Shown here: positions 594 through 19,488 of the stretch, piece after piece | Layout: the number at the start of each line of letters is the position of its first letter | Position numbering within the stretch: position 1 is the first letter of the stretch | Position numbers and translations under genes: made by a program | The notes under the pieces: model-generated | The model's database searches: none | What the model was told of the DNA's origin: nothing | Seen by the model: only the letters and a program-made list of their open reading frames with translations | Origin: Escherichia coli | Lineage (GTDB): Bacteria; Pseudomonadota; Gammaproteobacteria; Enterobacterales; Enterobacteriaceae | Strand: one strand, 5' to 3' | DNA: 64,000 nt | Assembly (NCBI RefSeq): GCF_036507355.1 | Contig: NZ_AP027877.1

Positions 594-884
594 TCACGGC
601 ATCAACCCATTGAACAGACGTTTTTTACGCGGCCCGGTCATTAAAGATTCCAGTTTCGCGACACAGGTTTTGTAGTGGGGCGTGGTTTTATGGAACGCCA
701 CTGCGTCTTCATCTTTATAGGCTTCGTAGATATAAAAGCGCGAATTCACTTCCGGGTCCTGTAAGACATCGAAGCGCAAATTGCCTTCTTCCTGTACAGA
801 GCCCAGGTGGTTCTGGCGAAAAACTTCGATAAACTCGTCAACCTTGTCTTCATGAACGTTAATTTCAACCAGTGTGACGTGCAT
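594..884 (-). CDS. lsrG: autoinducer-2 degradation protein LsrG (96 aa)
   Basis: 96-aa [21 protein letters not shown]..., length and sequence match LsrG; sits directly downstream of lsrF. Confidence 0.9.
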
Positions 885-907
885 AATTCTTCTCCTTAAA
901 TCCGCAG

Positions 908-1783
908 TTACTGTTTTTCACTCAGATAGAGTTCATATGCCCGATCAGCCGTTTCGTTATGGTGAACCACCGCCTGTACGGCTTTCATCATCGCCACCGG
1001 ATGGTCAGACTGGAAAATATTACGCCCCATATCCACACCAGAAGCGCCCTGATCGATAGCCTGCCAGCACATTTCCAGCGCCTCGCGCTCCGGTAATTTC
1101 TTACCGCCAGCAATAACAATGGGTACCGGACATCCGGCAACAATCCGTTCAAAACCTTTTTCGACATAATAGGTTTTGATAATTTGCGCCCCCATTTCAG
1201 CGGCGATTCGAGTCGCGAGCGAGAAATAACGCTGATCGCGCACCATATCTTTGCCCACGCCAGTCACGGCCATGGTCGGCATTCCCACTTTCATTCCGGC
1301 ATCGACCAGCTGAATAATATTTTTGATCGACTGATGTTCATATTCGCTGCCGATATAAACCTGCGCCGCCACCGCGCAACTGTTCAGGCGCACGGCGTCA
1401 TCCATCGATAACGCCACGGCTTCATTACTTAATTCCGCCAGAATAGAGTTCGCACCTGACGCCCGCAGTACCACCGGCTTATTGGTCGCCGGGGGAACTA
1501 CGCTGCGCAAAATGCCGCGCGTACACATTAATACATCGGCATGTTCAAACAGCGGGGCGATATTTATATCAATGCGTTCAAGTCCGGTAGTCGGCCCCTG
1601 AAAATAACCATGGTCAAAGGCCAGCATCACGGTTTTACCCGTTTTCGGATTAAATATCCGCGATAAGCGTGACTGCATTCCCCAATCCAGTGCACCGCAA
1701 CCTTTCAGGGTAAAAGGGATATTTTGTTGCGATTGATCGGTACGAAAATCTTTACCATCTTTAATATCGTCTAAATCTGCCAT
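908..1783 (-). CDS. lsrF: LsrF, class I aldolase-family thiolase for phospho-AI-2 (291 aa)
   Basis: 291-aa [31 protein letters not shown]...; length and operon position match LsrF. Confidence 0.9.
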
Positions 1784-1809
1784 AACTTACTCCGGTTAAG
1801 TAATGCACA

Positions 1810-2832
1810 TCAGAAATCGTATTTGCCGATATTCTCTTTGTTGAATATCACGCGCTCCGGTAACAGTACGATGCCATTACCATCCGCTTCGTAGTCATAG
1901 CCCTGAACGCTGTTTGGCGAGACTTCCACCTGACCTACGCCCTGAATATCCAGCATGTCGCCCGTTTTCATTGATCCTTTTTTCAATAATGCATCCGCGA
2001 CATAAACTGATATTTTGCCTTGCTGAACCACATCCCACAGGCCAAATTCTTTCACCGTGCCGCGTTCCACATATGGACGCATCACGTTTGGCGTACTGAA
2101 TCCGACAATCGCAACTTTGTCATTTTTCAGGTTTTCTGCGGCTTGTGCGGCAGCGGGCAGGGCATTGGCATCGGGGGCGATAATGGCGTCGAGATCGCTA
2201 TACGCTTTTAATATTCCTTCTGCGGTTTGTAATGATTTAGTGGCATCGTTATAGCCAAACTGCGTAGTGACAATTTCCCAGCCAGGATGCTCTTTGGCGA
2301 TTTTCGCTTTCGCTTCTTTCACCCACTGGTTTTGGTCCGTAACGGTGGGGCTTGAGTAGAAAAACGCGACTTTGGCTTTGTCTTTATTCACCTGACGCGC
2401 CGCCATATCCACCAACATACCTCCCAACTGGGCGGGCGTTCCCTGATTAATGTAGTAAGAGCGGCACTCCGGTTTAGTATCAGAGTCCCAGGTCAGCACT
2501 CTCACACCACGTTGCATGGCGCGTTTCAGTGCCGGACACAAGCCATCAGGCGAAACCGCAGAAACGATAATGGCGTTATAACCTTGATTGACGAAGTTAT
2601 TAATCAACTGTACCTGACCAGAAACACTGGGTTCTGTCGGCCCGTCGTAGGTCACATCAACGCCCAGCTCTTTACCCGCTTGTTGTGCGCCGTTGCCACC
2701 GCTGGTAAAAAATCCCACGCCAACCAGTTTGGGAATAAATGCAATACGCTCTGCGGCCTGCACATTCATAGAGATTGCGGCAATGCCAAGAGCGCTAAGT
2801 AAGGCGATTTTCTTAAAGCGATGAAGTGTCAT
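1810..2832 (-). CDS. lsrB: periplasmic AI-2 binding protein LsrB (340 aa)
   Basis: 340-aa ORF with signal peptide ([26 protein letters not shown]), periplasmic sugar-binding fold; lsr operon context. Confidence 0.9.
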
Positions 2833-2843
2833 GAAGATATCCT

Positions 2844-3601
2844 TTATGGCAATGGGTTATTGGCCCGACGCGCCAGCCACTCTTTAATTTGCTGGCGATG
2901 CAGGCTAACGGAACGACCTACGACAACGACGATAAGTAGCGCACCGGAAAGGGCGCTGGACACCTGATTTGGCACTCCTGCCATTTGCAAACCTTGTTGC
3001 AAATATCCCACTAATAAAACCGCAATGGCGGTGCCGATAATGGAACCGGAACCACCATAAATATTGGCACCGCCAAGCACCACGGCGGTGATGGCGGGCA
3101 TCAGAAACGACGCACCGAGATCGGAACGTGCTGAACCAAAATACGACACCAGCAGCACAGCGGCGACCGCAGACGCCAGCCCCGTCATGGCATAGAGCGC
3201 ACATAAGGTACGGTTAACTGGAATCGCGCTATAAAGCGCCACGCGCGGGCTTTGCCCAATCAAAAACACGTTACGTCCGGCATGGGTTTTATGCAGCCAG
3301 AGCCAGAAAACGAGGAGACATATCAGGAAGATAATCAGCGGAACGGGGAGCCCCAACACATCCAGGTTAGCGAAATCTGTAAACGCCATCGGGAATCCAC
3401 CAATACCTTCGTACCCCGTCGCTCCGACCATCCCGGAAAGCAGCAGGGCGCTTCCGGCAAACAGATACAGCGTGCCAAGCGTAATCACCAGCGGGTTAAC
3501 TTTGGTATAGATAATTAATCCGGCGTTGATCAGCCCGCACAATGCGCCGAGCAGTAAGGTCAGGAGAATCGCCAGCGGCATCGGCACACCACTTTGAAAC
3601 A
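2844..3601 (-). pseudogene. lsrD: lsrD 3' fragment (C-terminal ~250 codons of the AI-2 ABC permease), cut off from its 5' end by the transposon
   Basis: ORF 2844..3587 is a polytopic permease C-terminus. Together with 9242..9481 it sums to 993 nt (330 codons plus stop) once the 5-bp duplication is counted once. Confidence 0.85.
3597..3601. repeat. 5-bp target-site duplication AAACA (left copy)
   Basis: Identical AAACA immediately outside both terminal inverted repeats (3597-3601 and 9242-9246). Confidence 0.8.
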
Positions 3602-3639
3602 GGGGGAACCGCAGAATTCGGAAAAAATCGTACGCTAAG
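3602..3639. repeat. left 38-bp terminal inverted repeat of the transposon
   Basis: GGGGGAACCGCAGAATTCGGAAAAAATCGTACGCTAAG; 35/38 match to the reverse complement of 9204-9241. Confidence 0.85.
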
Positions 3640-3790
3640 CTAACGGTGTTCTCGTGACAGCTCTTTGACTAGGCTTTCTAAGGCCATTCTGATAGCCCTG
3701 ACTTCCTGAAAAGCCATGGCTAAAATTTGTGCGGCTAAAAGGGATAACCGATGGTAAAGTAAGTTATCCCTGTCGAGATACTGAAAAGCG

Positions 3791-5368
3791 TTATCCTCGT
3801 TTTTCCCAAAACTGTTTTGCCAGTTCGCTCAGAGCGCTAGTTAACTGAGCGACAGATTTCGCACTTTGCAAATTATTCTGCCCGGTCTGTACATTGGTAT
3901 CAGCAGCATCGCGTATATTGATAATACTGCGGTTTATGTCTTCACTTACTGCTCCCTGCTGCTCGACCGCAGTCGCTATTTGCGCGTTCATGTCGGTAAT
4001 TTCGTTAACGCGTTGGCCAATTCCATCAAGAGCTGTAGCTGCTTCCTCTGCGTGAGCTACACTCGTGTGCGCTTGCCGACTACTTTGCTCCATGACTGTA
4101 ACAGCGGATTGCGCTCGCTCTTGTAGAGCGCTGATCATGCTTTGAATATCCGTTGTCGATTGCTGTGTGCGAGCAGCAAGACTGCGAACCTCATCGGCGA
4201 CAACAGCAAAACCACGCCCCTGCTCACCAGCACGCGCGGCCTCAATTGCTGCGTTGAGTGCCAACAAATTCGTTTGCTCGGCGATCCCTCGTATAACGTC
4301 AAGAACTTTTGATATCTCGTTACTTTGACCTTCAAGCTCATGAATAACCTGAGTGGCTTGCCTAATTTCACCTTCAAGGGCAGTGATTGACTGGCTTGTG
4401 TGGGCTACCAGACGCTGGCCAGATGCCGTCTCAGTGTCTGCTCTTCCGGCCGCATCTGCAGCATGCTGTGCATTGCTCGCAACCTCTTGAATGCTTGCCA
4501 CCATTTGGTTTACTGCCGTTGCTATTTGATCTGTCTCTGCCTGCTGCTCAACTGTAAGTACATTGCTTGACTCAATATCCTTTAGTAGGCCTCGGGTGTG
4601 TTCGCTAAGCCGATTTGATGCATCACCTATGCGACCTACTATGGCGCCTGTTTCAGCTTGCATCATTCGTAAAGCAAACTCTATTTGGCCAAACTCATCG
4701 GTGCGCCCAGTGTAGAGGGATTGACTTAATGGGTTATTGGAAATATTCTTGGCTCTTTCAACCAGTCTTCCAAGAGGAGAGAGAATAGCCAAAACACTAA
4801 CAGAGCTTAAGCTTCCTGACATTAAAGTGGCTAACAATAAGCTGCTTATTGATGTATCAGTAAGCATGCCGGCAGCCATTGCGCTTGATATAATACTACC
4901 CCATATGAGCAAGAGTATTTTCACGGAAAAGCTAGCAGCCAATTTCGGCCTCGCGGCCTTCCCGCTTCTCAATTGAGCATATAATTTTTCCGCAGCCAAA
5001 ACCTGCTCAGGTTCAGGCTTGGTCCTTACAGACTGGTATTCAACAATCGAACCATTCTTAGCTATTGGCGTTACATAAGCACTTACCCAATAGTGGTCGC
5101 CATTTTTACAGCGATTTTTTACTAGCCCCATCCATGAGCGGCCAGATTTTAATGTACTCCACATATGCTCAAATGCAGCAGGCGGCATATCTGGGTGTCT
5201 TACGATGTTGTGAGGCTGGCCTAATAGTTCTTCCTCAGTGAAACCACTGATTTTAATGAAGTCAGGATTAACGTACGTGATATGGCTTTGAGGGGAGGTA
5301 GTCGAAAGAATATTGGCATCTTTTGGGAGTTCTAAGTTTCGACCCGTCACTGGTAAATTCTGGCGCAT
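3791..5368 (-). CDS. methyl-accepting chemotaxis protein with N-terminal PAS domain (525 aa), transposon cargo
   Basis: PAS-like N-terminus ([10 protein letters not shown]...[12 protein letters not shown]), hydrophobic segment, conserved MCP signalling core ([38 protein letters not shown]). Confidence 0.8.
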
Positions 5369-5677
5369 AAGAACCTCAAGGGTTGGCTGTTTTATTTTAT
5401 TGTTTTCGGCATTAAGCCCAATTTCTTGAGCGTTACGATAAAGCTAGCATGGAAACGATAGGTGCAAGCAAGTTAAGGGTTGCATCGCGCATGTCAATCT
5501 AGGCTATACCCTAACTTGATGTCAGGCAGGGCCGCGCCGCTTCGTCAGAATAGAGTCTGCTTTCCCATTTTTTGACACATGCCCGCGAAGGTTATAGATT
5601 TCAGCCTGACAGAAATGGGCTTTGAGGCACAACGGAACAGAAAGTGCACTTAAGCCGCCTTCAACCAAGGAGACATC
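5369..5677. promoter_or_regulatory. putative res (resolution) site and divergent promoter region between chemoreceptor gene and tnpR
   Basis: Intergenic position typical of res in Tn21/Tn1721-type elements; inverted repeats TGTCAGGC / GCCTGACA near 5520 and 5605. Subsites not mapped. Confidence 0.4.
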
Positions 5678-6238
5678 GTGCAGGGGCACCGCATCGGCTA
5701 CGTCCGGGTCAGCAGCTTTGACCAGAACCCGGAACGCCAGCTGGAACAAACCCAGGTGAGCAAGGTGTTCACCGACAAGGCATCGGGCAAGGACACCCAG
5801 CGCCCCCAGCTCGAAGCGCTGCTGAGCTTCGTCCGCGAAGGCGATACAGTGGTGGTGCACAGCATGGATCGGCTGGCCCGCAACCTCGATGACCTGCGTC
5901 GCTTGGTACAGAAGCTGACTCAGCGCGGCGTGCGCATCGAGTTCCTGAAGGAGGGCCTGGTGTTCACTGGCGAGGACTCGCCGATGGCCAACCTGATGCT
6001 GTCGGTGATGGGGGCCTTCGCTGAGTTCGAGCGCGCCCTGATCCGCGAGCGGCAGCGTGAGGGCATCGCCTTGGCCAAGCAGCGTGGCGCGTACCGGGGC
6101 CGCAAGAAAGCCCTGTCCGATGAGCAGGCTGCTACCCTGCGGCAGCGAGCGACGGCCGGCGAGCCCAAGGCGCAGCTTGCCCGCGAGTTCAACATCAGCC
6201 GGGAAACCCTCTACCAGTACCTCCGCACGGACGACTGA
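5678..6238 (+). CDS. tnpR: serine recombinase, Tn3-family resolvase TnpR (186 aa)
   Basis: Resolvase N-terminal catalytic motif (GYVRVSSFDQNPERQ), C-terminal HTH; close to Tn21/Tn1721 TnpR. Confidence 0.9.
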   Translation: MQGHRIGYVRVSSFDQNPERQLEQTQVSKVFTDKASGKDTQRPQLEALLSFVREGDTVVVHSMDRLARNLDDLRRLVQKLTQRGVRIEFLKEGLVFTGEDSPMANLMLSVMGAFAEFERALIRERQREGIALAKQRGAYRGRKKALSDEQAATLRQRATAGEPKAQLAREFNISRETLYQYLRTDD

Positions 6239-6241
6239 CAC

Positions 6242-9208
6242 ATGCCGCGTCGCTTGATCCTCTCGGCCACGGAGCGGGACACCCTGCTTGCGCTGCCGGA
6301 AAGCCAGGATGACCTGATCCGCTACTACACCTTCAACGACTCCGACCTGTCGCTGATCCGCCAGCGACGCGGCGACGCCAACCGCCTCGGCTTCGCCGTG
6401 CAGCTCTGCCTGCTGCGCTACCCCGGTTACGCGCTGGGAACCGACAGCGAGCTGCCCGAGCCGGTCATCCTGTGGGTGGCGAAGCAAGTCCAGGCCGAGC
6501 CGGCGAGCTGGGCAAAGTACGGCGAGCGCGACGTGACCCGTCGCGAGCATGCCCAGGAACTGCGCACCTACCTGCAACTGGCCCCGTTCGGCCTGTCCGA
6601 CTTCCGCGCCCTGGTGCGCGAGCTAACCGAGCTGGCCCAGCAGACCGACAAAGGCTTGCTGCTGGCCGGTCAGGCCCTGGAGAGCCTACGGCAGAAACGA
6701 CGCATCCTGCCGGCGCTGAGCGTGATTGACCGGGCCTGCTCGGAAGCCATTGCGCGAGCCAATCGGCGGGTCTACCGCGCCCTGGTCGAACCACTCACGG
6801 ACTCGCATCGGGCCAAGCTGGACGAGCTGTTGAAGCTCAAGGCCGGCAGCAGCATCACCTGGTTGACCTGGCTGCGCCAGGCACCGCTGAAACCCAACTC
6901 TCGGCACATGCTGGAACACATCGAGCGGCTGAAGACATTTCAGTTGGTGGACTTGCCCGAAGGCCTGGGCCGGCACATCCACCAGAACCGCCTGCTCAAG
7001 CTGGCCCGCGAGGGTGGGCAGATGACGCCCAAAGACCTCGGTAAGTTCGAGCCGCAGCGCCGCTACGCGACCCTGGCCGCCGTGGTGCTGGAGAGCACCG
7101 CGACCGTGATCGATGAGCTGGTCGATCTGCATGACCGCATCCTGGTCAAGCTGTTCAGCGGCGCGAAGCACAAGCATCAGCAGCAGTTCCAGAAGCAGGG
7201 CAAGGCGATCAACGACAAGGTGCGCCTGTACTCCAGGATCGGCCAGGCGCTGCTGGAAGCGAAGGAAAGCGGCAGCGACCCCTATGCCGCCATCGAGGCG
7301 GTGATTCCCTGGGACGAGTTCACCGAGAGCGTCAGCGAGGCCGAGCTGCTGGCCCGGCCGGAAGGCTTCGACCACCTGCACCTGGTCGGCGAGAACTTCG
7401 CCACCCTGCGCCGTTACACGCCGGCCTTGCTGGAGGTGCTGGAACTGCGCGCCGCGCCGGCCGCGCAAGGCGTGCTGGCAGCCGTGCAGACCCTGCGTGA
7501 GATGAACGCCGACAACCTGCGCAAGGTGCCGGCCGATGCACCCACGGCCTTCATCAAGCCGCGCTGGAAGCCGCTGGTGATCACCCCGGAAGGCCTCGAC
7601 CGGAAATTCTACGAAATCTGCGCCCTGTCCGAGCTGAAGAACGCCCTGCGCTCCGGCGACATCTGGGTCAAGGGCTCGCGGCAGTTCCGCGACTTCGACG
7701 ACTACCTGCTGCCGGCCGAGAAGTTCGCCGCACTCAAGCGCGAGCAGGCCCTGCCCCTGGCGATCAACCCGAACAGCGACCAGTACCTGGAAGAGCGTTT
7801 GCAGCTGCTGGACGAGCAGTTGGCCACCGTCACCCGCCTGGCCAAGGACAACGAGCTGCCCGATGCCATCCTCACCGAGTCAGGGCTGAAAATCACCCCG
7901 CTGGATGCGGCGGTGCCGGATCGGGCGCAGGCGCTGATCGACCAAACCAGCCAGTTACTGCCGCGCATCAAGATCACCGAACTGCTGATGGACGTGGACG
8001 ACTGGACGGGCTTCAGCCGCCACTTCACCCACTTGAAGGACGGGGCCGAGGCCAAAGACAGGACGTTGCTGCTGTCCGCAATCCTCGGTGATGCGATCAA
8101 CCTCGGGCTGACCAAGATGGCCGAGTCGAGCCCCGGCCTGACCTACGCCAAGCTGTCCTGGCTGCAAGCCTGGCACATCCGCGACGAAACCTATTCGGCG
8201 GCCTTGGCCGAGCTGGTCAACCACCAGTATCGCCACGCCTTTGCCGCCCACTGGGGCGACGGCACGACCTCATCCTCCGATGGCCAGCGCTTCCGCGCGG
8301 GTGGCCGGGGCGAGAGCACCGGGCACGTCAACCCGAAGTACGGTAGCGAGCCGGGACGGCTGTTCTATACCCATATCTCCGACCAGTACGCGCCGTTCAG
8401 CACCCGCGTGGTGAATGTCGGCGTCCGCGATTCCACCTATGTGCTCGACGGCCTGCTGTACCACGAGTCCGACCTGCGGATCGAGGAGCACTACACCGAC
8501 ACGGCCGGCTTCACCGATCACGTCTTTGCCCTGATGCACCTGCTAGGCTTCCGCTTCGCGCCGCGCATCCGCGACCTCGGCGAAACCAAGCTGTACGTGC
8601 CGCAGGGCGTGCAAGCCTACCCGACGTTGCGCCCGCTGATCGGCGGCACCCTGAACATCAAGCACGTGCGTGCCCACTGGGACGACATCCTGCGCCTGGC
8701 CAGCTCGATCAAGCAGGGCACCGTCACCGCCTCGCTGATGCTGCGCAAGCTCGGCAGCTACCCGCGCCAGAACGGACTGGCCGTGGCCCTGCGCGAGCTG
8801 GGCCGGATCGAGCGCACGCTGTTCATCCTGGACTGGCTGCAAAGTGTTGAACTGCGCCGCCGCGTGCATGCCGGCCTGAACAAAGGTGAGGCGCGCAACT
8901 CGCTGGCCAGGGCGGTGTTCTTCAACCGCCTTGGGGAAATCAGGGATCGGAGCTTCGAGCAGCAGCGCTACCGGGCCAGCGGCCTCAACCTGGTGACGGC
9001 GGCTATCGTGCTGTGGAACACGGTGTACCTGGAACGCGCCACCCAGGGGTTGGTCGAGGCCGGCAAGCCGGTGGACGGCGAGCTGCTGCAATTCCTGTCG
9101 CCGCTGGGCTGGGAGCACATCAACCTAACCGGCGATTACGTCTGGCGGCAGAGCCGCAGACTGGAAGACGGGAAGTTTCGGCCCTTACGGATGCCCGGAA
9201 AACCTTAG
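6242..9208 (+). CDS. tnpA: Tn3-family transposase TnpA (988 aa)
   Basis: 988-aa ORF, typical Tn3/Tn21 transposase length; 3' end runs into the right inverted repeat, as is usual in this family. Confidence 0.9.
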
Positions 9209-9241
9209 CGTACGATTTTTTCCGAATTCTGCGGGCTCCCC
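9204..9241. repeat. right 38-bp terminal inverted repeat of the transposon
   Basis: CTTAGCGTACGATTTTTTCCGAATTCTGCGGGCTCCCC; reverse complement matches the Tn1721-type IR. Confidence 0.85.
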
Positions 9242-9246
9242 AAACA
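9242..9246. repeat. 5-bp target-site duplication AAACA (right copy)
   Basis: Same pentamer as 3597-3601, directly abutting the right IR. Confidence 0.8.
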
Positions 9247-9481
9247 GTACGCCCAATGCAATGGCGCAGAGGCCGATGGTCGAACCAAACGAAATATCGA
9301 TCCCGCCACTGACAATCACCATCGTCAGCGGTAGGGCGACAATGCCAATGCAGATAAAGTCACTGGTGCTGAACAGCAACATATTGAGATCTAACATCCG
9401 CGGGTTAATTGCACCAAATGCGACAATCTCAATAACGAGCAGTGCGGCAAGAGCCAGTTCCCAACCGTAGCGAATACGCAT
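9242..9481 (-). pseudogene. lsrD: lsrD 5' fragment (N-terminal ~80 codons)
   Basis: Reverse-strand ORF begins [30 protein letters not shown]..., then reads into the transposon IR. Confidence 0.85.
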
Positions 9482-10509
9482 TATGCGGCCTCCCGTTTTT
9501 TACCTGACGAAGCGGGTTTAACGGATGGCGGTGGCGTCATAAAGCGGGCATATTTTTGCCGCCGTAGATTACGTTCCAGCGCACAACGCAGGCGTCCATC
9601 AAACACCAGCACCACCAGTAGCACGAGGCCCGCGATAAAATCGTTCCACCATGCCGGAATGCGCAACAGCACCAGTACGCTATCGATCTGCGTCAGGAAC
9701 CATGCGCCGAGTACCGCACCGATGATCGCACCGGAACCGCTGAGCAAACTAATGCCGCCCAGCACGCAGGCTGCAATTGCTTTCATCTCCAGCCCGGTAC
9801 CGGTCTGGTTGGGGATAAAACCAATCTGCGAAGCAAACACAATTCCCGCCAGTGCCGCCATGCAGCCGTTCAACGAAAATGCCACAATGCGAATGGCTTC
9901 CGTACGAACGCCCAGTTGACGAGCGCCCTGTAAATTATCGCCCGTGGCATAAAAACTGCGTCCAAACGCCGTCTTCGCCAGCAGCCAGGCCATAAATGCC
10001 ACCAGAATTATTGTTAACCAACCAATTGCTGAAACGCCAAGCAGCAGCGGGGCGGAGAGCTGTTTCAGTTCGGCGGGTAACCCCTCAATCCATTTACCGC
10101 CAGTCCACAGCAACATGATGCCTCTGTACAACCCTAACGTGCCAAGGGTGGCAACAATGGCAGGGATTTTTAGCCACGCGACCAGGACACCGTTGAAAAA
10201 TCCTGCGAGCAAACCAAGCAGTAAAGTCGCGACACAAGCAACAGGTAGTGAATACCCCGCGTTCAGTAACATCCCCAACAGCACCGCGCACATTCCGGTA
10301 ATCGAACCCACTGAAACATCAATATTGCGCGTAAGCATTACCAGCGTCGCGCCCATTGCCAGCAGGATCAGGATTTGCGCGCTGCTATAAACCATGGTCA
10401 GCGTTTGCACACTTAAATACTGGCGGTCGAGAAAACCGGGTAATACAAACAGCAGCACCACCGCCAGCAGTGCCGTGATTTCACGGTTGTTCTGAATAAA
10501 CTTCAGCAT
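9481..10509 (-). CDS. lsrC: AI-2 ABC transporter permease LsrC (342 aa)
   Basis: 342-aa polytopic membrane ORF between lsrA and lsrD; length matches LsrC. Confidence 0.9.
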
Positions 10510-12038
10510 GACGCCTCCTGACGCTGACTATCGCCGAAGGCAACGCGCATAATAGTCTCGACATTAATATCGCGCCCGGTCAGTGCAGAGTGGGTAATTT
10601 CGCCCTGATGCATCACATACACACGATCTGCCATCAGTTCGATCTCTTCCAGGTCGGAGGAGATAAGCAGCACAGCCACATTTTGTGCGGCGATGCTGCG
10701 TAACAGCTGGTAGATATCATTACGGGCCGAGACATCCACGCCGCGCGTCGGCTCATCGACTATCAATACTTGCGGCGAGGCTTCCAGGCATTTGGCAATC
10801 AGGATTTTTTGCTGGTTGCCACCGGATAATGTCCGTGCAGCTTGTTCCGGTTGGTTAAATTTAATATTCAGCGCCCGACGATATCGTTCCAGGGTGGCAT
10901 TATCTTTCGCGGTTTTCGCCCAGAATCCACGAAGGTTATGAGTAAGGGCGCAGACGTTCCAGGCCAGCGAAGCATCGAGATTCAGTCCGGAGGACTGGCG
11001 ATCTTCCGGCAGATAAACGAGACCGCGCAGTAAACGTTCTCCAGTGGAGAATCTATTGATCTCTTTATCATTCAGCATAATGCGTCCGCCACGCAAAGTA
11101 CGTAGACCATAGAGCGTCTCGGCCAGTTCTGTGCGTCCGGCACCCACCAGCCCAGCCAGACCCAGAATTTCTCCGGCATTTAGCGTCAGGCTGACATTCC
11201 TGAAACCTTCGCCAGTCAGATTTTTCAGTGTCAGCACCGACGTTCCTGCGGCATGTTGTGGGCGGTTACCAGGTAACTCCAGCCATAATTTTTGGCTGGC
11301 AGAGAGCGATTTTTCCCGTACCACTGGCGTGATGGCCTGAATAATGTCGTCGGTAGACAGTTCGCTGGTTTTGCCGCTTAAGGCGATGGTTCCGTCGCGC
11401 ATCACGCTAATTCGATCGGCAATCTGGCGAATTTCCGGCAGCTTATGCGAGATAAAAACAATACCCACGCCAGTAGCAAGCAGCTCTTGCAAGCGACTAA
11501 ACAAGCGTTCGGTTTCCGCAGGGGTAAGCGAGGCGGTAGGTTCATCGAGGATCAGAATCCGCGAGTCGCGCATCAGCCCGCGGAGGATTTCCACCATTTG
11601 GCGATCGGCGACATCCAGCGATCCTGCCAGACTATGCAGATCAAACTGGCAGCCCAGCGCCGCCAGCAAGTTCTTCATTTTCTGCATGGAGAGCTGTTTT
11701 TTTGCCAGCCCAAACAGGATGTTTTCTTTTATCGACAGGCTTGGGAAAAGCAGCGGTTCCTGGGGAACGAGATAAATACCCAGCTGATGAGCATGAACTG
11801 GCGTTAATCTGGCGTAGTTGTTGCCCCCAATCTCCAGCGTACCGCTATCAGCAGGGGTAATACCGGCAATAATCTTCATTAACGTCGATTTACCGGCACC
11901 ATTGCCGCCGAGCAGGGCGTGGACCTCCCCCTGATGCAACGTAAAATCGATGCCTTTCAGGACATTGACCCCTGAATACTGTTTATAAACCGAGCGGGCG
12001 CAAAGTAGCGGTAACGCGCGGGTATCACTCGTTTGCAT
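10503..12038 (-). CDS. lsrA: AI-2 ABC transporter ATP-binding protein LsrA (511 aa, two nucleotide-binding domains)
   Basis: Two Walker A motifs ([18 protein letters not shown]) and ABC signature motifs; 7-bp overlap with lsrC. Confidence 0.9.
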
Positions 12039-12286: not shown

Positions 12287-13240
12287 ATGACAATCAACGA
12301 TTCGGTAATTTCAGAACAGGGAATGTGTGAAGAAGAACAGGTCGCGCGGATCGCGTGGTTTTACTACCACGACGGGCTGACCCAGAGTGAGATCAGCGAT
12401 CGTCTCGGCCTGACCCGTTTGAAAGTGTCGCGATTACTGGAGAAAGGGCATCAGTCCGGCATCATTCGCGTGCAGATTAATTCTCGCTTTGAAGGCTGTC
12501 TGGAATATGAAACACAATTACGTCGTCAGTTTTCGCTGCAACATGTCCGGGTGATCCCTGGGCTTGCGGATGCTGATGTCGGCGGGCGACTGGGGATAGG
12601 CGCGGCGCATATGTTGATGAGTTTACTTCAACCACAACAGATGCTGGCGATTGGTTTTGGCGAGGCAACCATGAATTCGCTGCAACGCTTAAGTGGTTTT
12701 ATTTCGTCACAGCAAATTCGCCTGGTCACGCTCTCCGGTGGCGTCGGTTCCTATATGACGGGTATCGGGCAGCTTAACGCGGCGTGCAGTGTGAATATTA
12801 TTCCGGCTCCGTTGCGGGCATCCTCCGCTGACATTGCCCGTACGCTAAAAAATGAAAATTGCGTCAAAGATGTTCTGTTAGCCGCGCAAGCAGCGGATGT
12901 GGCGATTGTCGGCATTGGGGCCGTGAGTCAACAAGACGACGCGACGATCATTCGCTCCGGTTATATCAGCCAGGGCGAACAGTTAATGATTGGCCGAAAA
13001 GGGGCGGTTGGCGACATTTTAGGCTACTTTTTTGATGCAAAAGGTGACGTTGTCACGGATATTAAAATACATAACGAACTGATTGGCTTACCTTTAAGCG
13101 CGCTGAAGACCATACCCGTCCGGGTTGGCGTGGCAGGGGGAGAAAATAAAGCCGAAGCAATTGCCGCTGCAATGAAAGGCGGTTATATCAACGCACTGGT
13201 TACCGATCAGGACACAGCAGCGGCGATTTTACGTAGTTAA
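12287..13240 (+). CDS. lsrR: lsr operon repressor LsrR (317 aa, SorC/DeoR-type)
   Basis: 317-aa [54 protein letters not shown]...; HTH followed by sugar-phosphate-binding domain. Confidence 0.9.
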
Positions 13241-13318
13241 ATTTGCATGACCTTATTACCGGGAATGATGGAGAACGTATAGAGGAACAGACAGAACGCA
13301 TAAGCCGAGGATAATCTA

Positions 13319-14848
13319 ATGGCTCGACTCTTTACCCCTTCAGAATCAAAGTATTACCTGATGGCGCTGGATGCAGGCACCGGAAGTATTCGGGCTGTGA
13401 TATTCGACCTGGAAGGCAATCAAATAGCAGTGGGACAGGCGGAGTGGCGGCATCTGGCAGTACCGGACGTTCCTGGTTCTATGGAATTTGATCTCAACAA
13501 AAACTGGCAACTGGCGTGTGAGTGTATGCGCCAGGCGCTGCACAACGCCGGCATAGCCCCGGAGTATATCGCTGCCGTTTCGGCATGTTCGATGCGTGAA
13601 GGCATTGTTTTATATAACAATGAAGGAACACCGATCTGGGCCTGCGCCAATGTGGATGCCAGAGCGGCGCGCGAAGTTAGCGAACTTAAAGAACTGCACA
13701 ACAATACCTTTGAAAACGAAGTTTATCGCGCGACCGGACAAACGCTGGCTTTAAGTGCCATCCCCAGATTACTTTGGCTGGCCTATATGCTCAGCGGCGA
13801 ACTTGCGGTGGATCCCTCTAACGCTGGCACCACGGGACTTCTTGATCTAACCATCCGTGACTGGAAACCTGCATTGCTGGATATGGCTGGCCTGCGTGCC
13901 GATATTCTTTCTCCTGTCAAAGAAACCGGCACATTGCTGGGCGTGGTAAGTTCACAAGCGGCGGAACTCTGCGGTCTGAAGGCGGGCACTCCGGTGGTCG
14001 TTGGAGGAGGCGACGTGCAGCTTGGTTGCCTGGGGTTAGGCGTTGTGCGTCCGGCACAAACCGCGGTTCTTGGCGGCACATTCTGGCAGCAAGTTGTAAA
14101 TTTAGCCGCGCCGGTGACAGACCCAGAAATGAACGTGCGCGTTAATCCTCATGTTATTCCTGGCATGGTACAAGCTGAATCTATAAGCTTTTTTACCGGA
14201 CTCACCATGCGCTGGTTCCGCGATGCTTTCTGTGCCGAAGAAAAACTGATTGCCGAACGTTTAGGCATCGACACCTATACGCTGCTGGAAGAGATGGCCA
14301 GTCGGGTGCCGCCTGGGTCGTGGGGCGTAATGCCGATCTTCTCCGACAGAATGCGCTTTAAAACCTGGTATCACGCTGCGCCTTCCTTTATTAACTTGTC
14401 CATTGACCCGGATAAATGTAACAAAGCGACATTGTTCCGTGCGCTGGAAGAAAATGCGGCGATTGTATCAGCGTGTAACTTGCAGCAAATTGCTGATTTC
14501 TCGAATATTCATCCTTCATCGTTAGTCTTTGCAGGCGGAGGTTCAAAAGGGAAATTATGGAGTCAAATTCTCGCTGATGTCTCGGGATTACCCGTCAATA
14601 TTCCGGTAGTCAAAGAAGCCACCGCATTAGGATGTGCCATTGCAGCTGGCGTCGGTGCCGGAATTTTTTCATCAATGGCAGAAAACGGAGAACGCCTGGT
14701 TCGCTGGGAACGGACGCACACACCAGACCCAGAAAAGCATGAACTTTATCAGGATTCACGCGATAAGTGGCAGGCAGTTTATCAGGATCAGCTGGGGCTG
14801 GTTGATCATGGACTGACGACGTCGTTATGGAAAGCGCCTGGGTTATAG
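13319..14848 (+). CDS. lsrK: autoinducer-2 kinase LsrK (FGGY carbohydrate kinase), 509 aa here
   Basis: FGGY-kinase N-terminus ([13 protein letters not shown]), lsrRK context; in-frame stop immediately upstream of the ATG at 13319. Shorter than the ~530 aa I recall for K-12. Confidence 0.85.
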
Positions 14849-15060
14849 TTTCATTGACAGCCACATCATGATGACCGTGGCTGTTAGTTTTTGAGTATAG
14901 TTATTCTTATTTCCCTTCTTTTAGAGCTGGCTTGTTAAATGCCAGCTTGCAGATTCATCGTTCCATCACCAGTACTATATTCAAGGGAAAATTGCTATTT
15001 TTCTTGGTGATGCTGCCAACTTACTGATTTAGTGTATGATGGTGTTTTTGAGGTGCTCCA

Positions 15061-15336
15061 GTGGCTTCTGTTTCTATCAGCTGTCCCTCCTGTTCAGCTA
15101 CTGACGGGGTGGTGCGTAACGGCAAAAGCACCGCCGGACATCAGCGCTATCTCTGCTCTCACTGCCGTAAAACATGGCAACTGCAGTTCACTTACACCGC
15201 TTCTCAACCCGGTACGCACCAGAAAATCATTGATATGGCCATGAATGGCGTTGGATGCCGGGCAACAGCCCGCATTATGGGCGTTGGCCTCAACACGATT
15301 TTACGTCACTTAAAAAACTCAGGCCGCAGTCGGTAA
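15061..15336 (+). CDS. insA: IS1 InsA (91 aa)
   Basis: [43 protein letters not shown]... zinc-finger/HTH InsA. Confidence 0.95.
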
Positions 15337-15758
15337 CCTCGCGCATACAGCCGGGCAGTGACGTCATCGTCTGCGCGGAAATGGACGAACAGTGGGGCTA
15401 TGTCGGGGCTAAATCGCGCCAGCGCTGGCTGTTTTACGCGTATGACAGGCTCCGGAAGACGGTTGTTGCGCACGTATTCGGTGAACGCACGATGGCGACG
15501 CTGGGGCGTCTTATGAGCCTGCTGTCACCCTTTGACGTGGTGATATGGATGACGGATGGCTGGCCGCTGTATGAATCCCGCCTGAAGGGAAAGCTGCACG
15601 TAATCAGCAAGCGATATACGCAGCGAATTGAGCGGCATAACCTGAATCTGAGGCAGCACCTGGCACGGCTGGGACGGAAGTCGCTGTCGTTCTCAAAATC
15701 GGTGGAGCTGCATGACAAAGTCATCGGGCATTATCTGAACATAAAACACTATCAATAA
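15255..15758 (+). CDS. insB: IS1 InsB reading frame (167 aa; the transposase InsAB' is made by -1 frameshift at the A-run near 15310)
   Basis: Canonical InsB sequence; TTAAAAAAC slippery run in the insA/insB overlap. Confidence 0.9.
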
Positions 15759-15773
15759 GTTGGAGTCATTACC

Positions 15774-17755
15774 GGAATTTCCTCGGAACGGGCGAAGCTT
15801 TCCGCTATATCTATATCGGTGATGCTGGCGATGGTGAACTTAATGTCTCGAGTGAAGGCAAAGTAGATTCGGGAATTATCACTGCGGGGATGAAAGAAAC
15901 AGGCACAGGCAACATTACTGTTAAGGATAAGAACTCCGTTATCACTAATCTCGGAACTAATCTTGGTTATGACGGCCACGGCAAAATGAATATCAGTAAT
16001 GAGGGGCTTGTTGTCAGCAACGGAGGAAGCTCTCTCGGTTATGGAGAAACCGGCGTCGGGAAGGTTAGCATCACCACGGGGGGGATATGGGAGGTCAATA
16101 AGAATGTCTATACCACCATTGGTGTTGCGGGCGTCGGAAACCTCAATATTAGCGATGGCGGTAAGTTCGTATCGCAAAATATTACTTTTTTGGGCGATAA
16201 AGCAAGCGGTATCGGCACTCTGAACCTGATGGATGCGACATCATCGTTCGATACTGTGGGTATCAATGTCGGTAATTTTGGTAGCGGTATCGTAAATGTC
16301 AGTAATGGTGCCACCCTTAATTCAACGGGCTATGGATTTATCGGAGGAAATACCTCCGGTAAGGGGATAGTTAATATTTCAACGGATAGTCTCTGGAATT
16401 TAAAGACATCATCTACTAACGCCCAATTGCTACAGGTCGGTGTATTAGGCACGGGTGAACTGAATATTACCACCGGAGGTATAGTTAAAGCGCGTGATAC
16501 ACAGATAGCTCTCAATGACAAAAGTAAGGGCGACGTGAGGGTGGATGGGCAGAACTCTCTTCTTGAAACATTCAATATGTACGTAGGGACATCTGGTACG
16601 GGTACGTTAACCCTGACGAATAGCGGCACGCTGAATGTCGAAGGTGGAGAAGTTTACTTAGGTGTTTTTGAACCTGCTGTAGGAACGCTAAACATTGGTG
16701 CAGCTCACGGTGAGGCGGCGGCAGATGCCGGGTATATAACCAACGCGACGAAAGTAGAGTTTGGTTCTGGCGAAGGTGTTTTTGTCTTTAATCATACTAA
16801 TAACAGTGATGCCGGCTACCAGGTCGATATGCTGATTACAGGTGACGATAAAGACGGAAAAGTGATCCATGATGCAGGCCATACGGTGTTCAATGCAGGG
16901 AATACTTATAGCGGTAAAACGCTGGTCAATGACGGCATCCTGACCATTGCGTCTCATACGGCAGATGGGGTAACGGGCATGGGTTCGAGTGAAGTAACCA
17001 TTGCAAGCCCCGGTACGCTCGACATTCTCGCATCAACGAACAGTGCAGGAGATTACACGCTGACCAATGCGCTCAAAGGCGATGGCTTGATGCGAGTGCA
17101 GCTGTCATCCTCCGACAAGATGTTTGGCTTTACCCATGCAACAGGGACTGAATTCGCCGGTGTTGCCCAAGTGAAAGACAGTACCTTCACTCTGGAACGC
17201 GACAACACCGCTGCGCTTACTCACGCGATGTTGCAGTCTGACAGTGAAAATACCACATCGGTAAAAGTTGGAGAGCAATCCATTGGTGGACTGGCCATGA
17301 ATGGAGGTACCCTCATTTTCGATATCCAGGTCTTTCAGTGGTTGATTGGCGCAACGGATGGCCATGCAAAAAACTTCTCCGTATTTATTCAGGCTGGCGG
17401 CAGTTATCGACTCACGCCATTTTACGACATCATTTCAGCATTTCCGGTATTGGGTGGCGCGGGAATACACATCAGCGATCTCAAACTGGCAATGGGGCTT
17501 AACGCATCCAAAGGCAAAAAAACGGCAATCGATAAAATTTATCCGCGACATTTTTTGGCGACAGCAAAGGTGCTGAGATTCCCGGAAGTGCAGATGCATG
17601 AAATCCTGAGTGACTTTGCCAGAATGATTCCGGCAGCACTGGATAACGTGAAGACTTCATTACCGACAGATTTTCCAGAGAACGTGGTGACGGCAGTTGA
17701 AACCAATGTGTTGAGGTTGCACGGTCGGTTAAGCCGAGAATACGGTATTAAGTAA
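15774..17755 (+). pseudogene. chimeric remnant: AIDA-like autotransporter passenger fragment (ydeK/yneO-like, 5' end removed by IS1, no beta-barrel domain) fused in frame to the 3' end of hipA
   Basis: N-terminal ~480 codons are Gly/Thr/Asn/Ser-rich beta-helix repeats; the last ~142 codons are the HipA C-terminus. Confidence 0.7.
17327..17755 (+). pseudogene. hipA: hipA 3' fragment (C-terminal ~142 codons of the HipA kinase toxin, including the catalytic loop); hipB and the hipA 5' part are absent
   Basis: QVFQWLIGATDGHAKNFSVFIQAGGSYRLTPFYDIISAFPVLGG...RLHGRLSREYGIK matches the HipA C-terminus; the N-terminal domain and ATP-binding region are not upstream. Confidence 0.75.
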
Positions 17756-18008
17756 GAGTAAGATATGGGGTTTGGTCGTTGTTAATGAGCAGGACAATCA
17801 TGACCGCCAACGACTAGATTCTTCCTTGGTTTATGTTGGTGCGCATAATGTATATTATGTTAAATCACCTACTGTGGTAAATAAGTTCATATGACACTCC
17901 CACTAACTGATAAATCAATACGTTAGGATTTCTGATCTCCCTCTCGTTTCTTGCATTAGGTACAGAGTACATTCTCTTCATATCCATGATAATTTTGAGG
18001 TAAATATT

Positions 18009-18720: not shown

Positions 18721-18775
18721 GGTGATGCTGCCAACTTACTGATTTAGTGTATGATGGTGTTTTTGAGGTGCTCCA

Positions 18776-19051
18776 GTGGCTTCTGTTTCTATCAGCTGTC
18801 CCTCCTGTTCAGCTACTGACGGGGTGGTGCGTAACGGCAAAAGCACCGCCGGACATCAGCGCTATCTCTGCTCTCACTGCCGTAAAACATGGCAACTGCA
18901 GTTCACTTACACCGCTTCTCAACCCGGTACGCACCAGAAAATCATTGATATGGTCATGAATGGCGTTGGATGCCGGGCAACAGCCCGCATTATGGGCGTT
19001 GGCCTCAACACGATTTTACGTCACTTAAAAAACTCAGGCCGCAGTCGGTAA
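18776..19051 (+). CDS. insA: IS1 InsA (91 aa)
   Basis: Identical to copy-1 InsA except one residue (MVMNG vs MAMNG). Confidence 0.95.
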
Positions 19052-19473: not shown

Positions 19474-19488
19474 GTTGGAGTCATTACC

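What the first reader, a model, noticed from the sequence alone, without database searches (positions are those of the whole stretch)
2844..9481. Tn1721/Tn1722-like transposon inserted in lsrD, splitting the AI-2 uptake operon
lsrD is cut into a 5' piece (9242-9481) and a 3' piece (2844-3601) by a 5,640-bp element with 38-bp terminal inverted repeats (35/38 identical) and a perfect 5-bp AAACA direct duplication. The two lsrD pieces plus one copy of the duplication add up to exactly 993 nt, the intact gene length, so this is a simple insertion with nothing lost. LsrD is one of the two permeases of the AI-2 importer; lsrB, lsrF and lsrG lie downstream in the same operon and are probably uncoupled from the lsrA promoter. 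The strain is predicted to be defective in AI-2 internalisation.
Basis: partly seen in the sequence, partly recalled or inferred. Interest (0 to 1): 0.75.

Follow-up and report, generated by a model that had tools for sequence, protein, structure and literature searches.

The report
Tn1722 transposon splitting lsrD near dif
A well-known 5.6-kb mobile element (Tn1722) has jumped cleanly into the E. coli AI-2 import gene lsrD; the event is ordinary, but it lies next to the chromosome's replication-termination point, where natural copies of this transposon turn out to cluster.

Summary
Window 3602-9241 is a 5,640-bp element with 38-bp inverted repeats (35/38) and a perfect AAACA duplication. The two lsrD pieces rejoin into an intact 993-nt gene.

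The element is Tn1722, the basic transposon of Tn1721, and matches widespread plasmid and chromosomal copies at 5,640 of 5,640 bases. The insertion is private. It is absent from 5,426 complete E. coli genomes, from GTDB representative genomes and from JGI metagenomes.

The functional prediction needs three qualifications:
- K-12 lsrD knock-outs only slow AI-2 removal.
- The same strain also has a private in-frame 63-bp deletion in lsrK.
- The transposon's mcp gene reads outward toward lsrB, so lsrBFG may not be silent.

The insertion lies 8.6 kb from dif, and about 4.9 kb short of TerC on the K-12 map. I mapped 16 independent complete Tn1722/Tn1721 insertions with target duplications in native chromosomal DNA. 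Fifteen lie in the terminus region and eight within 20 kb of dif. Five, this one included, fall in or beside the lsr locus. This extends to natural isolates a terminus preference that was proposed for Tn1721 from three laboratory insertions. Position, not selection on lsr, best explains the site.

Verdict: a real, known element with low intrinsic novelty and a modestly interesting context.

The parts
2844..3601 (-). lsrD 3' piece (codons 81-330 plus stop). Its last 5 nt are the left copy of the target duplication.
   Evidence: Rejoins with 9247-9481 into a 993-nt, 330-aa LsrD.
3597..3601 (.). Target-site duplication, left copy (AAACA).
3602..3639 (+). IRL of Tn1722 (GGGGGAACCGCAGAATTCGGAAAAAATCGTACGCTAAG).
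3740..3771 (-). 10-bp hairpin with a 12-nt loop followed by UUUU, just after the mcp stop. A weak candidate terminator between mcp and IRL.
   Evidence: Seen in the RNA fold. Not called by the terminator scan. Function untested.
3791..5368 (-). Passenger gene orfI/mcp: 525-aa PAS plus methyl-accepting chemotaxis signalling protein. Co-directional with the lsr operon and reads toward IRL and lsrB.
   Evidence: PAS domain at aa 23-109 and MCP signalling region at aa 182-520. Tn1722 encodes an MCP that interferes with chemotaxis when over-expressed (PMC5756416).
5369..5677 (.). mcp-tnpR spacer: presumed res site and divergent promoters.
   Evidence: Promoter-like sites at 5572-5600 (+) and 5525-5496 (-). 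TGTCA/TGACA motifs at 5492, 5520, 5573 and 5607. The res function is inferred from position only.
5678..6238 (+). tnpR, serine resolvase, 186 aa.
   Evidence: Serine-recombinase family hits. Identical copies are annotated 'recombinase family protein' WP_001161490.1.
6242..9208 (+). tnpA, Tn3-family transposase, 988 aa, intact. Carries the DnaN-binding motif QLCLLR at residues 54-59.
   Evidence: NF033527 at 1289 bits, cut-off 500. Motif read; its role is described in PMC11417375.
9204..9241 (-). IRR of Tn1722 (GGGGAGCCCGCAGAATTCGGAAAAAATCGTACGCTAAG).
9242..9246 (.). Target-site duplication, right copy (AAACA).
9242..9481 (-). lsrD 5' piece (codons 1-80). The ORF runs on into IRR (9185-9481), giving a 98-aa truncated product.
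9481..12038 (-). lsrA (10503-12038) and lsrC (9481-10509), upstream of the break and still under the lsrA promoter.
   Evidence: NF011967 at 955 bits and NF011961 at 664 bits.
594..2832 (-). lsrB (1810-2832), lsrF (908-1783) and lsrG (594-884), downstream of the break. All three ORFs are intact.
   Evidence: NF011937, NF006081 and NF007791, all above their cut-offs.
12287..14848 (+). lsrR (12287-13240, intact) and lsrK (13319-14848, 509 aa). lsrK has an in-frame 63-bp deletion of aa 153-173 at the 13775-13782 microhomology.
17838..17865 (+). dif, exact 28-mer, 8,596 bp from the IRR end of the transposon.

Best explanation
A copy of Tn1722 inserted by replicative transposition into codon 80 of lsrD. 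Tn1722 is the 5.6-kb basic transposon of Tn1721, a Tn3-family element with the layout IRL-mcp-res-tnpR-tnpA-IRR.

**How it arrived (inferred from established Tn3-family mechanism).** The donor was probably a plasmid. TnpA made a staggered 5-bp cut at AAACA. The resulting cointegrate was resolved by TnpR at res, leaving a simple insertion with nothing lost.

**Why this site.** It was most likely chosen by position rather than by function. It lies in the replication fork trap, 8.6 kb from dif and, on the K-12 map, 4.9 kb short of TerC. Tn1721-type TnpA binds the beta-clamp DnaN through a QLxxLR motif and prefers this region.

**Consequences (inferred, not measured).**
- LsrD is truncated to 80 native residues, so the LsrACDB importer cannot assemble.
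- Transcripts from the lsrA promoter must cross about 3.5 kb of untranslated antisense tnpA/tnpR RNA and are unlikely to reach lsrBFG.
- Any lsrBFG expression would come from read-out of the mcp gene.
- AI-2 clearance should be slowed rather than abolished by this lesion alone. The co-occurring LsrK deletion of 21 residues may already keep the system uninduced.
For: **Shown directly**
- Repeats, duplication and exact reconstitution of lsrD.
- 100% identity over 5,640 bp to many plasmid and chromosomal copies, with intact tnpR and tnpA.
- The same unit forms the left arm of three-repeat, tetA-bearing Tn1721 in L003, L007, L008 and L011.
- TnpA carries Q54, L55 and R59.
- dif is at 17838-17865. 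The K-12 equivalent of the site is 1,604,282-286, with dif at 1,590,750-777 and the TerC core at 1,609,162-175.

**Survey of natural copies**
- I found 16 independent complete Tn1722/Tn1721 insertions with target duplications in native chromosomal DNA, counting the window.
- Fifteen lie in K-12 about 1.415-1.789 Mb.
- Eight lie within 20 kb of dif. Under a uniform distribution the probability is about 3e-13, or 2e-11 if the window is excluded.
- The dif-proximal targets are functionally unrelated: lsrD, lsrK, the tam|lsrG spacer, the lsrK|autotransporter spacer, the autotransporter, a fimbrial usher, yddA and a genomic island.
- The lsr backbones of these strains differ by about 1.5%, so the events are independent.

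**Literature**
- Tn1721 TnpA binds DnaN, and this is required for transposition. All 3 mapped chromosomal insertions fell within about 25 kb near where clockwise forks terminate (PMC11417375).
- Tn4430 transposes into replication forks (bioRxiv 10.64898/2026.05.30.728999).
- Phenotypes of lsr knock-outs (PMC3595036).
Against: - No reads or PCR are available, so the assembly is taken at face value.
- No expression or AI-2 data exist for the source strain, which remains unidentified.
- The survey is a sample, limited to the top 60 rows of two searches, not a census.
- Map positions of the more distant targets (recE, ydcF, trg, yddE, Qin, aroH) rest on K-12 gene order from my own knowledge, not on measured distances.
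- The terminus region is also poor in essential genes, so tolerance of insertions contributes something to the clustering.
- A role for selection on lsr loss cannot be excluded, given that the strain carries two hits in this system.
Confidence: 0.9

Rival explanations
1. The insertion was fixed because losing Lsr-mediated AI-2 uptake is advantageous (social cheating or balancing selection on lsr). On this view the site reflects selection on function rather than transposon targeting.
For: - Brito et al. infer at least 8 independent lsr inactivations in E. coli and argue that the decay is too fast to be neutral (PMC3595036).
- This strain carries two private lesions in the same system, lsrD::Tn1722 and the 63-bp lsrK deletion.
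- 13P460A has Tn1722 in lsrK.
- FORC_042 has an internal stop in lsrK.
Against: - Of the eight dif-proximal insertions, only two disrupt lsr genes. The others hit spacers, an autotransporter, a fimbrial usher, yddA and an island.
- Clustering follows distance to dif, not gene function.
- Selection is not needed to explain the site, although it could still have helped the allele persist.
Confidence: 0.2
2. Assembly artefact: a plasmid-borne Tn1722 was wrongly joined into the chromosome contig.
For: - Tn1722 is a multi-copy, mostly plasmid-borne repeat: 5,083 of 5,826 matching places are on plasmids.
- No other genome or metagenome carries this junction.
Against: - A mis-join would not create a perfect 5-bp duplication.
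- It would not leave two gene pieces that rejoin to the base into an intact 993-nt ORF.
- Both junctions sit exactly at the repeat tips.
Confidence: 0.02
3. The interrupted allele was imported ready-made by homologous recombination of a chromosomal segment from another strain, rather than arising by transposition in this lineage.
For: - The terminus region of this window is mosaic relative to its best matches: 7-9 aligned pieces at 98.4-98.7% identity.
- The element shares its variant (0 mismatches) with only a few records, including 23CRST010, which carries its own insertion 3 kb away.
Against: - No donor with this junction exists in any collection searched.
- The 23CRST010 backbone differs by about 1.5%.
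- The origin of the allele would in any case still be a transposition event.
Confidence: 0.05

Closest known systems
Tn1722 (basic transposon of Tn1721; Tn3 family)
   Same: - Same 38-bp repeats and 5-bp duplication.
- Same gene order, mcp-res-tnpR-tnpA.
- 5,640 of 5,640 bases identical to copies in many plasmids and chromosomes.
- Matches the published description of Tn1722 as the unit enclosed by the left and first right repeat of Tn1721, encoding an MCP (PMC5756416).
   Different: Nothing in the element itself. Only the insertion site (lsrD codon 80) is new.
Tn1721 (11.1 kb, tetA, three inverted repeats)
   Same: The window element equals the left arm of Tn1721 as seen in BE2-5, ST540, 63-2, EC42405, S171-1 and ABW_A19.
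   Different: The window copy lacks the 5.5-kb right arm (tetR-tetA, partial tnpA, third repeat). lsrD sequence starts directly after the first IRR.
TnAs1 (the ISfinder name used by NCBI annotation for this transposase family)
   Same: The transposase and resolvase are near-identical, hence the 'TnAs1 family transposase' label on identical copies.
   Different: TnAs1 proper is a chimeric variant in which the mcp half is replaced by pWW0-derived genes (PMC5756416). The window element has the Tn1722 mcp half.
Terminus-biased insertion of Tn3-family elements (Tn917; mini-Tn1721 in the laboratory)
   Same: - The window insertion lies in the dif-TerC interval.
- Tn1721 TnpA's DnaN-binding motif is present.
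- The three mapped laboratory chromosomal insertions fell in a ~25-kb stretch where clockwise forks terminate (PMC11417375).
   Different: This is a natural isolate, not a selected laboratory event. The dependence of this particular insertion on DnaN or on fork arrest cannot be tested here.
Natural inactivation of the lsr operon in E. coli (Brito et al. 2013)
   Same: This is another independent loss-of-function allele of the AI-2 reception locus, with more than one lesion in the same strain, as in operons 'in the process of pseudogenization' (PMC3595036).
   Different: - The 34 pseudogenes in that study were truncations, small indels and stop codons.
- IS and phage sequences were seen only in the flanks there.
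- Here a Tn3-family transposon interrupts a gene cleanly.
- That study did not consider the locus's position at the replication terminus.

Membership tests
Tn1722/Tn1721 (Tn3 family) | 38-bp terminal inverted repeats of the Tn1721 type. | tested here: met
   3602-3639 and 9204-9241, 35/38 identical. They are identical to the repeats bounding all other copies fetched.
Tn1722/Tn1721 (Tn3 family) | 5-bp target-site duplication. | tested here: met
   AAACA on both sides. Of the 17 other complete copies checked, 15 have 5-bp duplications and two have 6-bp ones.
Tn1722/Tn1721 (Tn3 family) | Large DDE transposase of the Tn3 family. | tested here: met
   988 aa; NF033527 at 1289 bits against a cut-off of 500.
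Tn1722/Tn1721 (Tn3 family) | Serine resolvase gene directly upstream of, and co-directional with, tnpA. | tested here: met
   186-aa ORF at 5678-6238 with serine-recombinase family hits. It equals WP_001161490.1 in identical copies.
Tn1722/Tn1721 (Tn3 family) | res site between mcp and tnpR. | tested here: inconclusive
   A 309-bp spacer with divergent promoter-like sites and four TGTCA/TGACA motifs. I had no reference res sequence or binding data to compare with.
Tn1722/Tn1721 (Tn3 family) | Passenger gene orfI encoding a PAS-MCP protein. | tested here: met
   525-aa ORF with a PAS domain and an MCP signalling domain. Described for Tn1722 in PMC5756416.
Tn1722/Tn1721 (Tn3 family) | Sequence identity to the left arm of three-repeat, tetA-bearing Tn1721. 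| tested here: met
   0-1 mismatch in 5,640 bp against the left arms of L003, L007, L008, L011, L017 and L018.
Tn1722/Tn1721 (Tn3 family) | Transposition competence of this copy. | not testable with these tools
   The ORFs and ends are intact and identical to widespread copies. Activity needs a mating-out assay.
LsrD, permease of the Lsr AI-2 ABC importer | Scores above the curated cut-off of the LsrD equivalog model. | tested here: met
   The rebuilt protein scores 594.8 bits against NF011612, cut-off 500.
LsrD, permease of the Lsr AI-2 ABC importer | Operon context lsrACDBFG with divergent lsrRK. | tested here: met
   All neighbours score above their equivalog cut-offs, in K-12 order.
LsrD, permease of the Lsr AI-2 ABC importer | Loss of AI-2 import in this strain. 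| not testable with these tools
   Needs an AI-2 clearance assay. The K-12 lsrD knock-out is 'less efficient', not null (PMC3595036).
Terminus-targeted Tn3-family insertion | Insertion lies within the fork trap, close to dif and TerC. | tested here: met
   8,596 bp from dif in the window. The K-12 equivalent is 13.5 kb from dif and 4.9 kb from TerC.
Terminus-targeted Tn3-family insertion | Independent insertions of the same element are enriched in that region. | tested here: met
   15 of 16 events lie in about 374 kb around the terminus and 8 of 16 within 20 kb of dif. This is a sample, not a census.
Terminus-targeted Tn3-family insertion | Targeting depends on the TnpA-DnaN interaction or on arrested forks. 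| not testable with these tools
   The motif QLCLLR is present at residues 54-59. Dependence was shown only in the laboratory for transposition frequency (PMC11417375).

The most novel reading that the evidence does not exclude
The lsr locus sits inside the dif-TerC fork trap. Tn1721-type transposons insert there far more often than elsewhere, and this window also shows IS1-associated deletions there. On this reading, part of the well-known 'lability' of AI-2 reception in E. coli, so far attributed to social or balancing selection, reflects a location-driven excess of disruptive mutations rather than selection for loss. The natural insertion map is also the first population-scale evidence for terminus targeting by Tn1721.
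Probability: 0.3. Interest if true: 0.5.

Novelty: already known. Interest (0 to 1): 0.27.

Why it matters
For the strain, this is one of two lesions that probably disable Lsr-dependent AI-2 uptake. That could alter AI-2 clearance, AI-2 chemotaxis and aggregation. This is a routine annotation point, and lsr loss is common in E. coli.

The wider value is in the context. Natural Tn1722/Tn1721 chromosomal insertions cluster tightly around dif and TerC. This gives independent, population-level support to the recent proposal that Tn3-family transposases find their targets through the replisome clamp at sites of replication termination. That proposal rested on only three mapped chromosomal events.

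It also warns that genes near dif, lsr included, may be hit by such elements for positional reasons. This matters when recurrent gene loss is read as evidence of selection.

Tried and rejected
- **Same junction elsewhere.** 600-bp probes across each junction found no record covering 80% or more in 5,426 complete E. coli genomes. A 37-mer across the left junction found nothing in GTDB representative genomes or JGI metagenomes. The source strain remains unidentified.
- **Orientation bias.** The tnpA/IRR end faces dif in 7 of 8 dif-proximal events (p = 0.07) but only in 10 of 15 terminus-region events overall (10 of 14, p = 0.18, before ABW_A19 was added). This is not significant, so I make no claim.
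- **Shared lineage of the lsr-locus insertions.** Rejected, because the backbones differ by about 1.5%.
- **Terminator downstream of mcp.** The consensus scan found none. The RNA fold shows a 10-bp hairpin plus U4, and the whole stretch is no more stable than shuffles (z = -0.56). Left as a weak candidate.
- **Coordinates of the three laboratory insertions of Tang et al.** No supplementary files are held for that paper.
- **Counting Tn1721 right-arm remnants as insertion events.** Rejected. These sit inside IS26/Tn21/mer resistance regions, lack a left end and a duplication, and were probably imported as part of larger segments.
- **Frequency of the lsrK 63-bp deletion.** All best matches carry the full-length allele. 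A rare occurrence among lower-ranked hits cannot be excluded.
Full report
**1. The observation**

Reading the two boundaries directly gives ...CACCACTTTGAAACA|GGGGGAACCGCAGAATTCGGAAAAAATCGTACGCTAAG... on the left. The right boundary reads ...CTTAGCGTACGATTTTTTCCGAATTCTGCGGGCTCCCC|AAACAGTACGCC....

- The inverted repeats are 3602-3639 and 9204-9241. They are 38 nt long and 35/38 identical, differing only at positions 5-7.
- A search for the repeat pattern finds exactly these two sites in the 64-kb window and none in 100 shuffles.
- The element is 5,640 bp and is flanked by AAACA at 3597-3601 and at 9242-9246.
- Removing the element and one AAACA joins 2844-3601 to 9247-9481 into a 993-nt ORF of 330 aa.
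- That protein scores 594.8 bits against the LsrD equivalog model, cut-off 500.
- The rebuilt gene is 982/993 identical to K-12 lsrD, with one amino-acid change, A137V.
- A 327-nt stretch of the rebuilt gene spanning the insertion site is continuous in 4,265 of 5,426 complete E. coli genomes and 100% identical in several, such as strain 042.

Every number in the finding is correct.

**2. What the element is**

The element carries three ORFs:

| Coordinates | Strand | Product |
|---|---|---|
| 3791-5368 | - | 525-aa PAS plus methyl-accepting chemotaxis signalling protein |
| 5678-6238 | + | 186-aa serine recombinase |
| 6242-9208 | + | 988-aa Tn3-family transposase (NF033527, 1289 bits, cut-off 500) |

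- Megablast finds the whole 5,640 bp at 100% identity in many plasmids of Escherichia, Klebsiella, Salmonella and others, and in E. coli chromosomes.
- Of the 5,826 matching places in the E. coli set, 5,083 are on plasmids.
- In several genomes the same 5,640 bp is followed by tetR(A)-tet(A), a partial tnpA and a third 38-bp repeat.
- That arrangement is the published architecture of Tn1721, whose basic unit between the left and first right repeat is Tn1722 and encodes an MCP (PMC5756416).
- In the window, lsrD sequence follows the first right repeat directly. The element is therefore Tn1722 itself, not Tn1721.
- NCBI's label 'TnAs1 family transposase' is a family name only. TnAs1 proper is a chimeric relative.

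The window copy has no mismatch to the copy in strain 23CRST010. It differs at one base, element position 1148 inside mcp, from all other chromosomal copies fetched.

**3. Is the insertion seen elsewhere?**

No. Probes across either junction find no complete E. coli genome with the same join. The left-junction 37-mer is absent from GTDB representative genomes and from JGI metagenomes. The allele is private to the unidentified source strain as far as these collections show. A mis-assembly is very unlikely, because a false join would not create a 5-bp duplication or two pieces that rejoin to the base.

**4. Consequences for the lsr system**

The operon reads on the minus strand in this order: lsrA (12038-10503), lsrC (10509-9481), lsrD codons 1-80, the transposon, lsrD codons 81-330, lsrB (2832-1810), lsrF and lsrG. 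lsrR and lsrK diverge on the plus strand.

- The truncated LsrD is 80 native residues plus 18 read from the repeat. This cannot form the permease.
- Transcripts from the lsrA promoter enter the element through IRR. They must then cross about 3.5 kb of untranslated antisense tnpA and tnpR, so polarity on lsrBFG is likely. This step is inferred.
- The mcp gene points the same way as the operon and sits at the exit end. The consensus scan finds no terminator between its stop and IRL.
- The RNA fold shows only a 10-bp hairpin with a 12-nt loop followed by UUUU at 3740-3771.
- lsrB keeps its own ribosome-binding site. Some lsrBFG expression from inside the transposon is therefore possible and untested.

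[quoted passage not shown] The lsrK mutant 'does not internalize the signal' (PMC3595036). E. coli lsrCDB mutants still remove AI-2 slowly (cited in PMC6909531).

**5.

lsrK in this window is 509 aa instead of 530.

- Alignment to a full-length allele shows an in-frame 63-bp deletion removing residues 153-173 ([21 protein letters not shown]). It lies between 8-bp direct repeats at 13775-13782.
- All best matches among 4,230 genomes carry the full-length sequence.
- The segment lies in the N-terminal domain of this FGGY-family kinase. Loss of 21 residues there is likely to be damaging. This is my inference and is untested.

If LsrK is inactive, phospho-AI-2 is not made, LsrR stays bound, and the operon is uninduced whatever the state of lsrD.

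**6. Why there: the replication terminus**

- The exact dif 28-mer is at 17838-17865, 8,596 bp from the IRR end.
- On the K-12 map the insertion corresponds to 1,604,282-286. dif is at 1,590,750-777 and the TerC core at 1,609,162-175.
- The site is therefore inside the dif-TerC interval, 4.9 kb short of TerC.
- Tang et al. showed that Tn1721 TnpA binds the clamp DnaN through a QLxxLR motif (Q54, L55, R59), and that this is required for transposition.
- In their mating-in assay 30 of 33 insertions went into a plasmid. All 3 chromosomal insertions fell in a ~25-kb region where clockwise forks terminate, and the authors urged caution given so few events (PMC11417375).
- The window TnpA has QLCLLR at residues 54-59.
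- A 2026 preprint argues that the Tn3-family element Tn4430 transposes directly into replication forks.

**7. Survey of natural chromosomal copies**

I took the chromosomal records from the top 60 hits to the element and from the top 60 hits to the Tn1721 right arm. I fetched each locus, located dif, TerC and the repeats, and checked the duplications.

After collapsing obvious clones there are 16 independent complete elements with duplications in native chromosomal DNA, counting the window. The collapsed sets are ST540 (three assemblies), T16R with YY76-1, and 63-2 with T28R. 'Nearest end' is the end of the element that faces dif.

| Strain | Element | Target | Distance to dif | Nearest end |
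|---|---|---|---|---|
| window | Tn1722 | lsrD | 8.6 kb | IRR |
| 13P460A | Tn1722 | lsrK | 8.0 kb | IRR |
| 23CRST010 | Tn1722 | tam\|lsrG spacer | about 16.6 kb (1.8 kb from TerC) | IRR |
| ST540 | Tn1721 | lsrK\|autotransporter spacer | 7.6 kb | IRR |
| FORC_042 | Tn1722 | autotransporter | 1.8 kb | IRL |
| T16R / YY76-1 | Tn1722 | island beside hipA | 10.5 kb | IRR |
| 19SZHZ869Rt | Tn1722 | fimbrial usher | 2.7 kb | IRR |
| EC42405 | Tn1721 | yddA | about 16 kb | IRR |

- Seven further events lie in the wider terminus region. These are yddE twice (different sites and orientations), trg, ydcF, recE of Rac, a Qin-like prophage tail-fibre gene, and the hemP|aroH spacer.
- One event lies elsewhere, in an IS1 between tnaC and mnmE.
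- Under a uniform distribution, 8 of 16 within 20 kb of dif has probability about 3e-13, or 2e-11 without the window. 15 of 16 within about 374 kb has probability about 4e-16.
- Two more complete copies with duplications sit inside imported segments: an IS26-bounded region in ZF34/ZF31 and a sil island in LHM10-1.
- Right-arm-only remnants inside multiresistance regions sit elsewhere. I did not count either group.
- The lsr backbones of the lsr-locus strains differ from the window by about 1.5%, so the events are independent.

The hit genes share position, not function.

**8. Caveats on the survey**

- Distances for the seven more distant targets come from K-12 gene order (my own knowledge), not from measurement.
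- No control element was mapped.
- Dispensability of terminus genes contributes to what survives.

In the searchable library, only Tang et al. and the 2026 preprint link Tn1721 to the terminus region. I found no report of the natural pattern, though the library is incomplete.

**9. Selection or position?**

Brito et al. inferred at least eight independent lsr inactivations and argued that the decay is too fast to be neutral. Their text does not mention the terminus. Two private lesions in one strain fit either relaxed or positive selection once the system is broken. However, only two of the eight dif-proximal insertions hit lsr genes. Targeting is therefore sufficient to explain the site, and selection remains a possible contributor to persistence.

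**10. Verdict**

The element is a known transposon, identical to widespread copies, and gene disruption by it is ordinary. Only the allele is new. The most useful by-product is population-level evidence that Tn1721-type elements insert preferentially around dif and TerC in nature, together with the caution this implies for reading recurrent lsr loss as selection.

Noticed in passing
window 13319-14848 (junction at 13775-13782): lsrK has an in-frame 63-bp deletion between 8-bp direct repeats, removing LsrK residues 153-173. All best matches in 5,426 genomes have the full-length allele. It is probably a second, independent lesion of the AI-2 system in this strain.
   Followed up: partly
window 15006-15773 and 18721-19488: Two IS1 copies (766/768 identical, direct orientation, neither with a 9-bp duplication) bracket dif. 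Relative to ST540, about 1.4 kb next to the first IS1 is missing. A further 4.2 kb is also missing, comprising the rest of the ECSE_1600 autotransporter, hipB and most of hipA. The toxin-antitoxin pair hipBA is therefore absent, and only an internal autotransporter fragment (ORF 15890-17755) remains.
   Followed up: partly
loci L001-L028 (complete E. coli genomes): Natural complete Tn1722/Tn1721 chromosomal insertions cluster at the replication terminus. 15 of 16 independent events lie there, 8 within 20 kb of dif, and 5 (window included) in or beside the lsr locus.
   Followed up: yes
window; L001, L002, L004, L007, L009, L011, L016: In 7 of 8 dif-proximal events, on both sides of dif, the tnpA/IRR end of the element faces dif (p = 0.07). 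Among the 7 more distant terminus-region events the split is 3 of 7. This is suggestive only.
   Followed up: partly
L014 (tnaC|mnmE), L026 (yihN), L027 (frwC/ptsP), L028 (corA): The one complete non-terminus insertion, and several Tn1721 right-arm remnants in resistance islands, lie within roughly 0.2 Mb of oriC (K-12 map positions from my own knowledge). This may be chance, or a second, origin-proximal preference.
   Followed up: no
L004 20001/25640 and L005 20001/25640: Two Tn1722 insertions have 6-bp rather than 5-bp target duplications (TATATA and TATCCG).
   Followed up: no
window 4749 (element position 1148, inside mcp): A single-base variant distinguishes the window copy from all other chromosomal copies fetched. 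Only the 23CRST010 chromosome and two plasmids (ET350, VTB97432v) give the same perfect-match score. It changes the MCP protein, since 23CRST010's copy is annotated WP_001513488.1 where the others are WP_001323889.1.
   Followed up: no
L009 / L012, about 10600-36100: T16R and YY76-1 carry a ~25-kb island beside dif, between yneL and hipA. It encodes two site-specific integrases, a type I restriction-modification system and duplicated helix-turn-helix modules, and itself hosts a Tn1722.
   Followed up: no
L004 30709-32301: FORC_042, which has Tn1722 in the neighbouring autotransporter, also has lsrK annotated with an internal stop. This is another decaying lsr system.
   Followed up: no
window 3740-3771 (minus strand): A 10-bp hairpin plus UUUU lies just after the mcp stop codon. 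The consensus terminator scan missed it because of the 12-nt loop and short U run. It could attenuate read-out from Tn1722 into flanking genes.
   Followed up: partly
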